Part shown: positions 547 to 10,417 of the stretch, piece after piece
How positions within the stretch are numbered: the first letter of the stretch is position 1
Layout: each line of letters starts with the position of its first letter
Virus record (IMG/VR): IMGVR_UViG_2974636330_000001
Span: 85,023 to 96,542 of that record
Source: a virus
Taxonomy: Duplodnaviria > Heunggongvirae > Uroviricota > Caudoviricetes
Direction: 5' to 3' (one strand)
Length of the DNA stretch: 11,520 bases
The notes under the pieces: model-generated
Told to the model about the DNA's origin: nothing
The model's database searches: none
The model's input: only the letters and a program-made list of their open reading frames with translations
Made by a program: the position numbers and the translations under genes

Positions 547-557
547 CAATGGAGTGA
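547..557 (+). promoter_or_regulatory. Conserved leader/RBS motif CAATGGAGTGA, copy 1
   Basis: Identical 11-mer at 547, 4158, 6045, 10040 and 10407, each 3-7 nt before a start codon. Contains the GGAG Shine-Dalgarno core. Confidence 0.85.
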
Positions 558-560
558 GTG

Positions 561-2498
561 ATGTTTGTCAGCATTTTCAGTAAGGAACAGCAGACCATCG
601 AGAATCTCGGTGGTAAAGGCTTCGGTCTGTGGCAGATGCAGCAGTCGGGCCTGAATGTCCCCCCGGCGCTGATCATCCCGACCGAGTTCTGCATCGAGTA
701 CCTCGCCAACCCGACGAAAGTGCGGGGCTGGATCAAGGACAAGTTGCCGGAAGTCCGTGAGTTCTTCGTGGAGCAGTTCGGCTACATGCCGCTGCTGTCT
801 GTCCGCTCCGGCGCTCGCACGTCGATGCCGGGCATGATGGACACGATTCTCAACGTCGGCCTCGACCCGCACACCACGCAGTTCTGGGTGGACAAGCTGG
901 GTCCGGCCTGCACCATGGACAGCCGCGAACGTCTGATCGAAATGTACGGTTCGGTGGTTGATGAACTGGACCGCGAAGACTTCGAAGGTCTGGACGTTGC
1001 GGGCCGACTGGCTCTGTACAAGGAACACACGGGCCACGACTTCCCGGAGGCAGATGACCAGATTCTCGGGGCCATCGAAGCCGTGTTCCGCAGCTGGAAC
1101 AACGACCGCGCCAAGGTGTACCGGAAGATGCACGGCATCCCGGAAGAGTGGGGCACGGCGGTGACCCTGCAAGCGATGGTGTTCGGCAACTACAACGACC
1201 AGTCGGCGACCGGTGTGCTGTTCACCCGCAACCCGGACAACGGGCTGGCTGAAGTGACCGGCGAGTTCCTGATCAACGCACAGGGCGAGGACGTGGTGGC
1301 GGGCATCAAGACCCCGCAGAAGCTGTACGACATGAAGGCGTGGAACGAGAAGGTCTACAACGAGCTGTTGGCCACGGTGATCGATCTCGAACTGAAGCGT
1401 AAGGACGTGCAGGACGTGGAGTTCACCATCCAAGATGGCAAGCTCTATATCCTCCAGACCCGTAACGCCAAGCGCAGTGCGCAGGCAGCGGTGAAGATCG
1501 CTCTGGACATGGTGGGCGAGAAGCTGCTGACCCCCACGGAAGCGATCAAGCGGGTGAGCCGCGCACAGTACGGCATGATGCGCCAGCCGATCCTCGACCC
1601 GAAGTTCAAGGACAAGGCAGAGTGGGAAGGCATCGCCGCCTGCTCGGGCGTGGCAACGGGCGTTGTGGTCCATTCGTCGCAGGCTGCAATTGATTGCAAG
1701 GTGCCCTGCATCTTGGTCACCAAGGAAACCACCCCGGATGATATCGCGGGCATGGTGGCCGCTCAGGCGGTGATCACGATGCAAGGTGGCAGCACCAGCC
1801 ACGCAGCGGTGGTGGCTCGCGGCATGAACAAGCCGTGCATCGTGGGCGTCGGCGCTGAAATCTCGGAGTTCAAGAAGGGTGTCGTGGTCAGTATCGACGG
1901 CGCAACTGGTCGTATCTGGCAGGGCGAAGTCCCGGTGATCGACAACAGTAAGTCGGAAGAACTGGAGAAGTTCAACCAGATGATGCTGGAGGCAGGCAAT
2001 GTCCAGATCATCAGCACCGACCACAACACTCCCTGCGCCATGCTGGATTTGACCGAGGTCATCCAGACGCCGGAAGTCGCGTTGGAGCGTATCCGTGGGC
2101 GGCTGCTCCAGAAGGGCGAGTTCATTGTCGATATCAGCCCGGGCGACACCGAGGCCGGACGTATGGTCAGCATGTTCTGTGACCCGGTGGATTTGCAGGA
2201 AGACCTGCTGGTGATGGTGGCCAAGAGCCTGACGAAGGAGCAGCTGGCCCGGGTGTCGTTCTCGACGGACTTCACCAAGGAGGTTCCGGGGGTGTCCTGC
2301 ATCAGTCGAGTGACCACGCTGGAGGCTCTGATCGAGAGCGACGGCAACTTTGAAATGGCCATGAAGGTGTCGAAAGTGGTCAAGAAGGTGCTGGCTTGGA
2401 AGGCCAACGAGAACTGCCACCCGATGGTGTTCGGCACGAGGACTGAAGGCAATTCGTTCCTCTCTCAGGAACAGGTGATCGCGGAGTTGCTGGCGTGA
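561..2498 (+). CDS. Pyruvate phosphate dikinase-like phosphotransferase (ATP-grasp plus phospho-His swivel domain; PEP/pyruvate TIM barrel absent, replaced by about 185 aa of unknown domain)
   Basis: PPDK motifs in canonical order: LGGKG, LSVRSGA..SMPGMMDTILNVG, LQAMVFGN, SATGVLFTRNP, GEFLINAQGEDVVAG, DVEFTI, LYILQTRNAKR, ETTPDDIAGM, GGSTSHAAVVARG (His codon 1800-1802), VSIDGATG. About 645 aa, against about 880 for canonical PPDK. ATG 561 fits the RBS spacing; GTG 558 is an alternative start. Confidence 0.9.
   Translation: MFVSIFSKEQQTIENLGGKGFGLWQMQQSGLNVPPALIIPTEFCIEYLANPTKVRGWIKDKLPEVREFFVEQFGYMPLLSVRSGARTSMPGMMDTILNVGLDPHTTQFWVDKLGPACTMDSRERLIEMYGSVVDELDREDFEGLDVAGRLALYKEHTGHDFPEADDQILGAIEAVFRSWNNDRAKVYRKMHGIPEEWGTAVTLQAMVFGNYNDQSATGVLFTRNPDNGLAEVTGEFLINAQGEDVVAGIKTPQKLYDMKAWNEKVYNELLATVIDLELKRKDVQDVEFTIQDGKLYILQTRNAKRSAQAAVKIALDMVGEKLLTPTEAIKRVSRAQYGMMRQPILDPKFKDKAEWEGIAACSGVATGVVVHSSQAAIDCKVPCILVTKETTPDDIAGMVAAQAVITMQGGSTSHAAVVARGMNKPCIVGVGAEISEFKKGVVVSIDGATGRIWQGEVPVIDNSKSEELEKFNQMMLEAGNVQIISTDHNTPCAMLDLTEVIQTPEVALERIRGRLLQKGEFIVDISPGDTEAGRMVSMFCDPVDLQEDLLVMVAKSLTKEQLARVSFSTDFTKEVPGVSCISRVTTLEALIESDGNFEMAMKVSKVVKKVLAWKANENCHPMVFGTRTEGNSFLSQEQVIAELLA
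1685..1698 (-). promoter_or_regulatory. Dispersed 14-bp pseudo-palindrome TGCAAT-CA-ATTGCA, copy 1 (TGCAATTGATTGCA on +)
   Basis: Exact reverse complement of the 14-mers at 5536 and 11498. Embedded in the dikinase CDS using locally unusual codons (gca att gat). Confidence 0.65.
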
Positions 2499-2543
2499 AA
2501 CCCGCTCTGTACAATGGCTGGAACCTGAAGGAACCCCAGCCCC

Positions 2544-2960
2544 ATGAGATCAGAGTGCCCGAAGTGCGGAAGTCAGTCCGCGTGGATCGAACAGACCCGG
2601 CAGGATACGACGCTTCGTTGCGTATGCGGCTACCTGAAAGTGCTTTCCACGAAGCTGGAGCGGATCGAAATCATCCGGGTGGACGTGGAAGCCGAGGCGA
2701 AGTTGCCTCGACGGAACTCGAATCTCTGGAACACGGTGAAGGTTTTGGAGGTGTACCAGCCAGCGTCGTCGGCGAGTATCACCCAGCGCCTGAACGACTT
2801 GAAGCTGGGCACCGAGTTCACGGTGAGTGATGTGAGTTCGTACCTCACCATCCTGCGCTCGAAGGGACTGGTCGTAACGACCGAAAGTCGCCGAGGGCTG
2901 GCCGGGGGGAGTACGTGGAAACTGAGTGATGTTTGTAACAGGCTGCTGGGAGTAGGGTGA
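2544..2960 (+). CDS. Zn-ribbon plus winged helix-turn-helix protein, putative transcription regulator
   Basis: N-terminal CPKC...CVCG. The C-terminal LWNTVKVL..ASSASITQRL..TVSDVSSYLTILRSKGLV..RRG..GGSTWKLS has the helix-helix-recognition helix-wing pattern. Start uncertain (see finding at 2483). Confidence 0.7.
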   Translation: MRSECPKCGSQSAWIEQTRQDTTLRCVCGYLKVLSTKLERIEIIRVDVEAEAKLPRRNSNLWNTVKVLEVYQPASSASITQRLNDLKLGTEFTVSDVSSYLTILRSKGLVVTTESRRGLAGGSTWKLSDVCNRLLGVG

Positions 2961-2961
2961 A

Positions 2962-3303
2962 ATGGCACTGTCAATTGGAGTGAAGAAGGGGAGTCAGATC
3001 AACATCGGCGGCGAGCGTATCGGAGGCCGCACGATCATGGACATGTACCAGCGTCCGAAGCTGATCGACTACACCCTGAAAGGTGGGCAAACGATGACGG
3101 TGGTGCAGGTGGACGGCACCGAGAAGATCGTCGTGGAGTTCTGCGGAAAGACCCTGACCCTGACCGACAAAGAGCGCGTGAAGTTGCAGGAAGGTGTGTT
3201 CGTCAGCTGCGGCCTGTCGAATGGCAAGGGGCAGGACTTCTACGGGCGTCTGGCATTCGAGGCTCCAAGGAGTGTGCGAATTGAGCGCATCCACACCCCC
3301 TGA
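2962..3303 (+). CDS. CsrA/RsmA-like RNA-binding protein, possibly a tandem (two-repeat) form
   Basis: C-terminal GRLAFEAPRSVRIER matches CsrA VRIGVNAPKEVSVHR, including the R44-equivalent Arg. N-terminal VKKGSQINIGG matches RRVGETLMIGD. At 113 aa it is about twice CsrA length. By-eye alignment only. Confidence 0.55.
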   Translation: MALSIGVKKGSQINIGGERIGGRTIMDMYQRPKLIDYTLKGGQTMTVVQVDGTEKIVVEFCGKTLTLTDKERVKLQEGVFVSCGLSNGKGQDFYGRLAFEAPRSVRIERIHTP

Positions 3304-3313
3304 CTACGAAGAA

Positions 3314-10039: not shown

Positions 10040-10050
10040 CAATGGAGTGA
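10040..10050 (+). promoter_or_regulatory. Leader/RBS motif CAATGGAGTGA, copy 4
   Basis: Exact copy, 3 nt before ATG 10054. Confidence 0.85.
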
Positions 10051-10053
10051 GAA

Positions 10054-10314
10054 ATGGCTAAGACCCTGACCCGTACCAAGACCGACCGCCAGAAGTTCGA
10101 AGACATGCTGGGCGAAGCTGTCGTGAGGGATGTTCGTATCTGCTTCGGGCTGGCATGGTTCGCCTCTGAAGAAGAGGCTGAAGAGTTCGGACGCCTGAGC
10201 GCGGCAGTCGGCAACACGATCAACGGCGGGTGGTTCCATGGCATGACCTGCGGGCGATCCACTCAGTTCGACTTCGTGAAGGAAGGCCAGAAGCTGTTCG
10301 CCGCCAGCTACTAA
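10054..10314 (+). CDS. Small hypothetical protein (86 aa)
   Basis: Has its own promoter and RBS. Motif-like NGGWFHGMTCGR. Confidence 0.85.
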   Translation: MAKTLTRTKTDRQKFEDMLGEAVVRDVRICFGLAWFASEEEAEEFGRLSAAVGNTINGGWFHGMTCGRSTQFDFVKEGQKLFAASY

Positions 10315-10346
10315 AAAATAGGCGAATAAAGGCGAAATAATTGGCG

Positions 10347-10373
10347 AAAGCCCTTCCATTAGGAGGGGCTTTT
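10347..10373 (+). terminator. Intrinsic terminator-like hairpin overlapping promoter P6
   Basis: AAAGCCCTTCC-ATTA-GGAGGGGCTTT(T): 11-bp stem with one G-U pair, downstream of the stop at 10314. Confidence 0.65.
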
Positions 10374-10381
10374 GCTATTCT
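10354..10381 (+). promoter_or_regulatory. Promoter cassette P6 (TTCCAT-N16-TATTCT)
   Basis: Three GGCGAA at 10321, 10331 and 10343. TTTTGCTATTCTA is shared with P1. Leader motif at 10407. Confidence 0.65.
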
Positions 10382-10406
10382 ATCCCTACACCAACAGCAA
10401 CACCCA

Positions 10407-10417
10407 CAATGGAGTGA
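10407..10417 (+). promoter_or_regulatory. Leader/RBS motif CAATGGAGTGA, copy 5
   Basis: Exact copy, 7 nt before ATG 10425. Confidence 0.85.

What the first reader, a model, noticed from the sequence alone, without database searches (positions are those of the whole stretch)
547..10417. Conserved RBS leader forms a CsrA-type ANGGAN hexaloop with a compensatory base pair, in a genome encoding a CsrA-like protein
Five leaders carry exactly C-A-[AUGGAG]-U-G-A and a sixth (3646) carries U-A-[AUGGAG]-U-A. The outer pair covaries (C-G to U-A), leaving a 2-bp-closed hexaloop. Established: CsrA/RsmE bind ANGGAN hexaloops over the Shine-Dalgarno (consensus A/UCANGGANGU/A). Here the closing pair is A-U rather than C-G, which could give specificity for the phage's own CsrA-like protein (2962-3303). 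A near copy, CAATTGGAGTGA, lies at 2972-2983 inside that gene, hinting at autoregulation. Inference: a phage-encoded translational regulon over the first gene of each promoter cassette.
Basis: partly seen in the sequence, partly recalled or inferred. Interest (0 to 1): 0.75.

Follow-up and report, generated by a model that had tools for sequence, protein, structure and literature searches.

The report
Phage ribosome-site hairpin with CsrA-like gene
About eighteen early operons of Stenotrophomonas phage DLP5 begin with the same 11-letter ribosome-binding element, which behaves as a tiny RNA hairpin, and the phage and all its relatives examined also carry a very divergent CsrA-type RNA-binding protein, so a virus-owned translation switch is plausible but untested.

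Summary
CAATGGAGTGA occurs five times and TAATGGAGTAA once in the window (0.36 expected). The 96.5-kb genome matches phage DLP5 in size. It has 19 copies, all on the coding strand: 15 C..G, 4 T..A and none mixed.

Copies sit 3-10 nt before the start codon of the first gene after an intergenic gap. They occur only in the non-structural part of the genome.

Leaders of the same four genes in six related phage lineages keep GGA in a 4-8 nt loop. The flanking arms are 2-5 bp in that set (up to 6 bp in a further lineage), with about 15 different complementary sequences. Mean stem is 3.1 bp against 1.8 when shuffled (0 of 5000). So a conserved RNA hairpin is well supported.

The 113-aa protein misses the Pfam CsrA threshold, but its family links to CsrA. 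58 of 109 members give weak CsrA hits and one passes the threshold. The Vibrio-phage protein in the same gene position also passes.

Binding is untested. The internal "near copy" is a coding by-product. No relative lacks the protein, so co-occurrence proves nothing. Host RsmA or a purely cis-acting role remain real rivals.

An earlier scan note described the promoter-leader cassette, but not the hairpin or the CsrA link.

The parts
547..557 (+). Leader element CAATGGAGTGA of the PPDK operon. This operon also contains the CsrA-like gene. GGAG lies 6 nt before ATG 561.
   Evidence: kept at the same site in Summit, DLP3, L102 and L108
503..530 (+). Promoter-like TTGCGC-N16-TATTCT, ending 16 nt before the element. 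The leader is therefore only about 24 nt long.
3646..3656 (+). U-A variant TAATGGAGTAA, before the phosphatase gene (ATG 3660). It lies inside the last codons of the upstream gene.
   Evidence: the same variant in L102, but the C..G form at the same gene's leader in L108
4158..4168 (+). Leader element before the 338-aa gene (ATG 4172)
4116..4143 (+). Promoter-like TTGACC-N16-TACGAT, ending 14 nt before the element
6045..6055 (+). Leader element before the 283-aa gene (GTG 6059, the start that Summit's annotation also uses)
6000..6027 (+). Promoter-like TTGCCT-N16-TATTCT, ending 17 nt before the element
10040..10050 (+). Leader element before the 86-aa gene (ATG 10054). A strong stem-loop at 10002-10025 precedes it.
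10407..10417 (+). Leader element before the 93-aa gene (ATG 10425, spacing 10 nt)
2962..3303 (+). Gene for a 113-aa all-beta protein, a divergent CsrA-superfamily member. It is the third gene of the operon led by the 547 element.
2972..2983 (+). Near copy CAATTGGAGTGA. These are codons 4-8 (SIGVK) of the CsrA-like gene, so it is a coding by-product and not a conserved RNA site.

Best explanation
The 11-mer is the ribosome-binding region of the short (about 10-40 nt) leaders of roughly 18 early or non-structural operons of a DLP5-type Stenotrophomonas phage.

In the RNA it forms a minimal hairpin. Two flanking pairs (C-G or U-A, then A-U) close the loop AUGGAG, which contains the Shine-Dalgarno GGAG.

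I propose that this hairpin is a translational operator of the CsrA type. The phage's own divergent CsrA-family protein (2962-3303) would bind the loop and stem and keep the 30S subunit off. That protein is made from an operon that itself starts with the element. The result would be coordinated shut-down of the early operons and negative feedback on the protein's own operon.

Shown here: the element, its placement, its covariation, the conserved hairpin architecture in relatives, and the remote CsrA homology of the protein. Inferred: RNA binding by this protein, repression as the outcome, and the timing.
For: 1. Placement. All 16 motif-bearing genes that my gene caller found follow a gap of at least 25 nt (hypergeometric p = 8e-7). 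None lies in the 0-28.5 kb structural module, whose highly expressed genes use plain AAGGAG sites. The element is therefore not simply the strongest ribosome site.
2. Selection beyond a Shine-Dalgarno. The whole 11-mer, including the three positions my search did not fix, is identical at 12 of 12 matched sites in DLP3, while flanks are 58-92% identical. It is also kept in L102 and L108, whose proteins are 64% and 39% identical.
3. Base pairing. The outer pair reads CG 27, UA 5, GC 1 and unpaired 0. The PTP leader is U..A in this phage and L102 but C..G in L108.
4. Structure kept while sequence changes. The leaders of PPDK, PTP1, the 338-aa gene and the 277-aa gene were compared in 7 lineages. 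Stems include CCCA/UGGG, AUUCA/UGAAU, GCAA/UUGC, AGUCA/UGACU, GUC/GAC, GAC/GUC, UUCUC/GAGAA, AACC/GGUU and GCC/GGC. Mean stem is 3.11 bp against 1.83 +/- 0.16 when shuffled (0 of 5000). Internal, translationally coupled genes are mostly near background (exceptions under evidence against).
5. Resemblance to CsrA sites. GGA sits in a 4-8 nt loop (4-6 nt at most sites) closed by a short stem and overlapping the Shine-Dalgarno. That is how high-affinity CsrA/RsmE sites are described (PMC7652899, read).
6. The protein. 58 of 109 family members hit Pfam CsrA and no other family is hit by more than 2. Member P0157 scores 29.9 bits against the 27-bit cut-off. The Vibrio phage PG28 protein in the same gene position scores 27.7 bits and aligns to the family at 92% HHalign probability. 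RcZahn gp7 aligns at 98.6%. V105, I107 and R109 align with CsrA V40, V42 and R44.
7. Every lineage with the hairpin also has the gene at the same position, after the PPDK gene (before the phosphatase gene where a phosphatase gene was found).
8. An orphan copy at genome position 51261 has no start codon nearby yet is kept in three phages. This fits a binding site better than a plain ribosome site.
Against: - No binding or expression data exist.
- The window's own protein scores only 11.9 bits on Pfam CsrA (E = 0.23).
- Profile comparison with a shallow CsrA alignment gives only 2-46% probability.
- In this phage the stem is 2 bp, is not predicted by energy minimisation, and the leaders fold less stably than their shuffles.
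- Stem length over all leaders of this genome is not significantly above shuffles (2.04 against 1.83 +/- 0.13).
- The internal-gene control is not clean everywhere. In L102 and the Vibrio phage locus L105, internal genes also lie about 2 sd above their shuffles, and L102 leaders do not exceed theirs.
- The leaders carry no second GGA site (0.74 per 60 nt against 1.23 expected), unlike many targets of dimeric CsrA.
- The closing pairs are CA/UG, not the AC/GU of the SELEX consensus.
- All lineages examined are relatives, so co-occurrence of gene and hairpin may be shared ancestry alone.
Confidence: 0.38

Rival explanations
1. The hairpin acts in cis only. It is a preferred way of displaying the Shine-Dalgarno near the 5' end of short leaders. 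It would tune initiation or protect the 5' end from decay, with no dedicated binding protein. The CsrA-like protein would have other, host-directed targets.
For: The loop is the Shine-Dalgarno itself, at normal spacing. The leaders are CA-rich and unstructured. Phage RsmA homologues have been proposed to act on host mRNAs (PMC8450108).
Against: It is absent from the highly expressed structural genes. The full 11-mer, with a mismatch to the anti-Shine-Dalgarno (U4) and a covarying outer pair, is conserved well beyond what ribosome pairing needs. A 4-6 bp stem around a 5-nt loop should hinder pairing with 16S rRNA rather than help it (inference). The orphan copy has no gene behind it.
Confidence: 0.25
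2. The host's own RsmA/CsrA is the binder. The phage either ties early gene expression to the host Csr state (relevant to its temperate, phagemid lifestyle), or its roughly 19 abundant leader copies soak up host RsmA.
For: The site has the general form of CsrA/RsmE targets. RsmA is functional in the Xanthomonas relatives of the host (PMC3937308 and PMC7286519, listed). DLP5 is temperate and kept as a phagemid (PMC5834331).
Against: There is no second GGA site for bridging by a dimer. The stem order CA/UG differs from the SELEX AC/GU. Element and gene always travel together, which fits a matched pair and is not explained if the host protein is the binder. The host genome could not be reached here, so motif use and RsmA in the actual host were not checked.
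Confidence: 0.15
3. The conserved unit is the mini reading frame AUG-GAG-UGA/UAA embedded in the element. It would act as a start-stop site that loads or parks ribosomes just before the real start codon.
For: 17 of 19 copies read ATG GAG TGA or ATG GAG TAA. Position 10 varies only between G and A, and both give stop codons. The frame usually matches the main gene.
Against: It does not explain why position 1 changes together with position 10. Three copies lack the stop (TGC, TGT here; TGG in Summit and DLP3). Relatives with the same hairpin at the same genes' leaders have no AUG at all (AGGAG, AGGA and AAGGAG loops). No Shine-Dalgarno precedes the mini frame. The phage's suppressor tRNA reads UAG, not UGA or UAA.
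Confidence: 0.05
4. The hairpin is the target of an endoribonuclease that cuts early mRNAs inside GGAG, as T4 RegB does, to shut off early genes.
For: T4 RegB cuts GGAG in early ribosome sites. Acting alone, it prefers an unpaired GGA with the fourth G constrained (PMC3014915). That is the geometry of the Vibrio-phage form GUC[AGGA]GAC.
Against: The genome has no RegB homologue, and no candidate nuclease is linked to the element. The A-rich sequence that RegB needs 3' of GGAG is absent.
Confidence: 0.06

Closest known systems
CsrA/RsmE binding sites (ANGGAN hexaloop of hcnA; CAGGA(U/A/C)G repeats of CsrB; SELEX consensus RUACARGGAUGU)
   Same: GGA in a 4-8 nt loop (4-6 nt at most sites) closed by a short stem, overlapping the Shine-Dalgarno. 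An A lies one or two nt before GGA (for the known sites; here).
   Different: The stem order is CA/UG rather than AC/GU. There is one site per leader, not two or more. One exact 11-mer is reused about 19 times in a single genome. Binding has not been shown.
Phage-encoded RsmA/CsrA homologues (Campa et al. 2021, PMC8450108; Burkholderia phage DC1, F116; ORF99 of Vibrio phage J26, PMC12038007)
   Same: A CsrA-family gene carried by a phage. In J26 the CsrA-annotated ORF99 comes directly before the tyrosine phosphatase ORF100 in a PPDK-encoding phage. That is the same neighbourhood as here.
   Different: Those proteins pass the Pfam model and are discussed as tools against host mRNAs such as CRISPR-Cas. 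This protein is a far more divergent form of about 88-113 aa with extra strands. Here the candidate targets are the phage's own leaders.
T4 RegA, translational repressor of many early mRNAs
   Same: The proposed logic is the same: one phage protein, many early ribosome sites, and self-limitation (PMC3014915).
   Different: No RegA homologue is present. RegA recognises loosely conserved unstructured sequence around the AUG, not a hairpin.
T4 RegB endonuclease and its GGAG targets
   Same: GGAG ribosome sites of early genes, but not late genes, form a marked class.
   Different: No RegB homologue is present, and the 3' consensus differs.
Reused phage promoter-leader cassettes (earlier scan note e1-1878067)
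   Same: The same roughly twenty expression units of this genome, with the 11-mer as the last part of the cassette.
   Different: That note treated the leader as an extended ribosome site. The covarying stem, its conservation as a structure in distant relatives, and the CsrA-family link are added here.

Membership tests
CsrA/RsmA protein family (Pfam PF02599) | The protein itself reaches the Pfam gathering score (27 bits) | tested here: not met
   The window protein scores 11.9 bits, E = 0.23, on residues 95-109 only. A six-frame search of the genome finds nothing.
CsrA/RsmA protein family (Pfam PF02599) | Homology to recognised members through intermediates | tested here: met
   58 of 109 family members hit PF02599 at E <= 0.1, and no other family is hit by more than 2. 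P0157 scores 29.9 bits. The PG28 protein in the same gene position scores 27.7 bits and aligns to the family at 92.4% HHalign probability over 83 columns.
CsrA/RsmA protein family (Pfam PF02599) | RNA-binding residues of strand beta5 (V40, V42, R44) and of beta1 (L4) | tested here: inconclusive
   V105, I107 and R109 align with V40, V42 and R44. I107 is invariant and R109 nearly so. The beta1 alignment (MALSIGVKK against MLILTRRVG) is weak.
CsrA/RsmA protein family (Pfam PF02599) | Five-strand plus helix fold forming an interlocked homodimer | tested here: inconclusive
   The AlphaFold2 models are confident (pLDDT 91 and 93), all-beta, with 9-11 strands and no helix. RsmN (4kji) matches only at Z 4.0 and 3.8, ranks 30 and 41. 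Foldseek finds nothing. Dimerisation was not modelled.
CsrA-type RNA binding site | GGA unpaired in the loop of a short hairpin | tested here: met
   Covariation of the closing pairs and conserved complementary arms of differing sequence in 7 lineages. The hairpin in this phage is too weak to be predicted by energy alone.
CsrA-type RNA binding site | Overlap with the Shine-Dalgarno or start region of a repressed gene | tested here: met
   GGAG lies 5-10 nt before the start codon at 18 of 19 copies. Repression itself was not tested.
CsrA-type RNA binding site | Two or more GGA sites per target, allowing bridging by a dimer | tested here: not met
   0.74 further GGA per 60 nt downstream against 1.23 expected, and almost none upstream.
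CsrA-type RNA binding site | Binding by a CsrA-family protein | not testable with these tools
   No protein-RNA assay or model is available here.
T4 RegA / RegB systems | Presence of the RegA or RegB protein | tested here: not met
   PF01818 and PF10715 give no match in six frames.

The most novel reading that the evidence does not exclude
A self-contained viral Csr-like circuit. A large, unannotated and highly divergent branch of the CsrA superfamily has at least 508 sequence clusters and is carried by PPDK-encoding siphophages of Stenotrophomonas, Burkholderia, Vibrio and Rhodobacter. It would have co-evolved with a cognate one-site operator hairpin placed on the ribosome-binding site of nearly every early operon leader. 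One small phage protein would then switch off, and self-limit, the whole early translation programme.
Probability: 0.33. Interest if true: 0.8.

Novelty: new variant of a known kind. Interest (0 to 1): 0.6.

Why it matters
Phage CsrA homologues have so far been discussed only as weapons against host mRNAs. If this reading is right, it would show a virus using a CsrA-type protein to run its own gene-expression timetable. The operator is simple enough (11 nt, one hairpin) to be tested directly and reused as a compact translational switch.

Whatever the mechanism, two results stand:
- a conserved, covarying hairpin that presents the Shine-Dalgarno, marking early operons across a wide phage group;
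- a large CsrA-related protein family that Pfam and PHROGs leave unnamed.

Tried and rejected
- Sequence profile of the family against PDB chains: no CsrA hit.
- Foldseek and VIA-align on two confident models: no convincing fold match. RsmN appears only at Z about 4.
- HHalign of the family, or its halves, against a shallow CsrA alignment: 2-46% probability.
- The idea that the protein is a tandem of two CsrA units: the N-terminal and C-terminal halves show no similarity to each other.
- PHROGs: no family for the protein.
- Extended pairing with the 16S rRNA 3' tail as the reason for conservation. By hand, only GGAG plus two A-U pairs fit. UGA pairs only if an rRNA base bulges out, and this explains neither U4, C1 nor the covariation.
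- A CsrB-like decoy RNA around the orphan copy at 49.6-51.3 kb: no repeated GGA loops seen.
- Suppression of the mini-frame stop codon by the phage tRNA: the anticodon is CUA, which reads amber only.
- RNA evidence: only wastewater contigs hold the sequence. No raw reads were available to map ends, so nothing was laid.
- The host genome and virus 'relatives' could not be reached. Motif use in host genes and host RsmA were therefore not examined.
- Stem length over all leaders of this genome alone is not above shuffles. The case for pairing in this phage rests on covariation and on relatives.

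
Full report
**What the window is.** The window is the right end (85023-96542) of a 96,542-bp virus record. Its DNA polymerase is 96.5% identical to that of Stenotrophomonas phage Summit and 84.5% to DLP3, both of genus Delepquintavirus. The length equals that published for the temperate phagemid phage DLP5 (PMC5834331). All confident genes lie on the + strand. The window encodes, in order: a PPDK-like dikinase, a small zinc-ribbon protein, the 113-aa protein in question, a zinc-finger protein, two CX5R phosphatases flanking a 338-aa protein, several small proteins, and a family A DNA polymerase.

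**The observation.**
- In the whole genome the core AATGGAGT occurs 19 times, always on the coding strand.
- The base before the core and the second base after it are C and G in 15 copies and T and A in 4. They are never mixed (p = 2.6e-4).
- Summit has 20 copies and DLP3 has 18. Each corresponding site keeps its type.
- At 12 sites matched between this phage and DLP3, the three positions not fixed by my search are identical in every pair, while flanks are 58-92% identical.
- A formal count on 33 copies from this phage, L102, L108 and L103 gives CG 27, UA 5, GC 1 and no unpaired cell for the outer pair. The covariation score is reached by 0 of 500 shuffles and collapses when the partner column is slid.
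- The next pair outward is unpaired in 29 of 33 copies, so the stem in this lineage is two pairs long.

**Placement.**
- Copies lie 3-10 nt before a start codon, with GGAG at normal Shine-Dalgarno spacing.
- All 16 motif-bearing genes found by my crude gene caller follow a gap of at least 25 nt (p = 8e-7).
- None of the 32 genes in the structural module (0-28.5 kb) has the motif. Those genes use plain AAGGAG sites.
- Ten copies follow a strict TTGNNN-N15-18-TANNNT match ending 7-24 nt upstream, so leaders are very short.
- This agrees with an earlier scan note on the promoter-leader cassette (e1-1878067).

**Is it a hairpin?** Energy minimisation does not predict a 2-bp stem, and the leaders of this phage fold less stably than their shuffles. 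Stem length over all leaders of this genome is also not significant. The decisive evidence comes from relatives.

I fetched contigs that encode homologues of the 113-aa protein and the Vibrio phage PG28 and Rhodobacter phage RcZahn records. Apart from L107, which has no PPDK or phosphatase gene, these larger loci share the gene order PPDK, small protein(s), this protein, phosphatase, about 340-aa protein, phosphatase, and so on to polymerase.

To avoid picking sites by their structure, I took the leaders of the same four genes (PPDK, first phosphatase, the 338-aa gene, the 277-aa gene) in seven lineages.
- L102 and L108 keep CAATGGAGTGA. L102 keeps TAATGGAGTAA before the phosphatase gene, but L108 has the C..G form there, which is a double change at one corresponding site.
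- L103 has CCCA[AGGAG]UGGG.
- The Burkholderia contig L104 has AUUCA[AGGAG]UGAAU, GCAA[AGGAG]UUGC, UUCA[..]UGAA and AGUCA[..]UGACU.
- Vibrio phage PG28 has GUC[AGGA]GAC, GAC[AGGA]GUC and UUCUC[AGGA]GAGAA.
- RcZahn has GCC[AAGGAG]GGC and AACC[AAGGAG]GGUU.
- L114 adds UUCUCA[AGGAG]UGAGAA.

Mean flanking stem over the 28 sites is 3.11 bp against 1.83 +/- 0.16 for shuffled flanks (0 of 5000). It is 3.75 bp in the four distant lineages. Internal, translationally coupled genes are mostly near background. L102 and L105 are exceptions: their internal genes lie about 2 sd above shuffles, and L102 leaders do not exceed theirs. Complementarity is kept while sequence changes, which points to pairing in single-stranded RNA and not to a DNA operator.

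**The protein.**
- Alone, it scores 11.9 bits on Pfam CsrA (cut-off 27), on residues 95-109. It has no PHROG family.
- It has close homologues with the invariant N-terminus MALSIGV and the C-terminal motif RLAFEAPRxIxIxR.
- A profile search finds at least 508 clusters at 50% identity, mostly 85-95 aa.
- Of 109 members scanned one by one, 58 hit Pfam CsrA at E <= 0.1, and no other family is hit by more than two.
- One member passes the cut-off at 29.9 bits.
- Matches fall in two pieces: residues 5-26 to CsrA 4-26, and residues 62-87 to CsrA 26-46. This looks like CsrA with about 35 inserted residues.
- The Vibrio phage PG28 protein at the same gene position passes the CsrA cut-off at 27.7 bits and aligns with the family over its full length at 92% HHalign probability. 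RcZahn gp7 aligns at 98.6%.
- A published Vibrio phage of this PPDK group annotates the gene directly before its phosphatase gene as CsrA (PMC12038007).
- V105, I107 and R109 align with CsrA V40, V42 and R44. R44 is the residue described as critical for RNA binding (PMC7652899).
- Fold comparison is inconclusive. Two confident all-beta models match RsmN only at Z about 4.

I therefore call the protein a remote member of the CsrA superfamily. I do not call it a CsrA.

**What does not hold.** The near copy at 2972-2983 is codons 4-8 (SIGVK) of the conserved N-terminus. In L102, L108, L103 and L104 the same peptide is encoded without GGAG. It is therefore a coding by-product. If there is autoregulation, it would act through the operon leader at 547. 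The leaders have no second GGA. The stem order differs from the SELEX consensus. An A(N)GGA loop is what any good Shine-Dalgarno looks like, so that resemblance is not independent evidence.

**Rivals.**
- Mini reading frame. ATG-GAG-TGA/TAA is present in 17 of 19 copies and explains why position 10 is only G or A. It does not explain the linked change at position 1, and it is absent from the corresponding hairpins of five other lineages. The phage suppressor tRNA reads only UAG.
- RegB-like nuclease. The GGAG logic fits, but there is no RegB or RegA homologue.
- Host RsmA as binder, or a purely cis-acting role. These cannot be excluded. Every relative has both the gene and the hairpin, so co-occurrence has no discriminating power.

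**Verdict.** The structural reading is supported by comparative evidence. The CsrA link is real but remote. The regulon is a reasonable hypothesis at roughly one in three, or about one in two if host RsmA counts as the binder. It would be a new variant of known kinds (CsrA-type repression; phage translational repressors such as T4 RegA). In the searches run here I found no description of it in the DLP3 paper, which mentions neither promoters nor ribosome-binding sites, or in the other papers retrieved.

Noticed in passing
window 10657-11464: A perfect 346-nt palindrome (arms 10657-11002 and 11003-11348, no spacer) is followed by a 127-nt exact re-copy of 10876-11002 at 11338-11464. It inflates the last gene to 263 aa. 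Removing 11003-11464 leaves a 330-nt gene, the length annotated in Summit and DLP3. This looks like a snap-back assembly or sequencing artefact at the record's end.
   Followed up: partly
G000:C1:51260-51270 (L005:1500-1510): An orphan TAATGGAGTAA lies after the tRNA cluster and structured RNAs, with no start codon for about 65 nt. Summit and DLP3 keep it while the 3' flank diverges.
   Followed up: partly
G000:C1:83695-83711 (L113): The element reads CAATGGAGTGT TAG ATG. An in-frame amber codon separates the mini frame from the AAA-ATPase start, in a phage that carries a tRNA with anticodon CUA (L005:510-583).
   Followed up: no
window 561-9881 and loci L102, L103, L104, L105, L106, L108, L114: A gene module is conserved in order across phages of Stenotrophomonas, Burkholderia, Vibrio and Rhodobacter: PPDK-like dikinase, CsrA-like protein, phosphatase, about 340-aa protein, second phosphatase, then the polymerase followed by the portal gene (the module in L114 is cut by the contig end at the gene after the ~340-aa protein).
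   Followed up: partly
window 1688-1701, 5537-5550, 11499-11512: Copies of the 14-bp near-palindrome TGCAATCAATTGCA or TGCAATTGATTGCA, already recorded by earlier scan notes as a genome-wide repeat.
   Followed up: no
L114:313-4731: A related phage contig encodes a 1472-aa protein with ART-PolyVal and ADP-ribosylating-toxin domains, followed by an ADP-ribosylglycohydrolase and a zeta-toxin-like kinase, just upstream of its PPDK module.
   Followed up: no
G000:C1:28146-28162: One gene (start 28163) has a 12-nt perfect complement of the 16S rRNA 3' tail (AGGAGGTGATCC) as its ribosome site. This shows what a maximal Shine-Dalgarno looks like in this phage and that the 11-mer is something different.
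   Followed up: no
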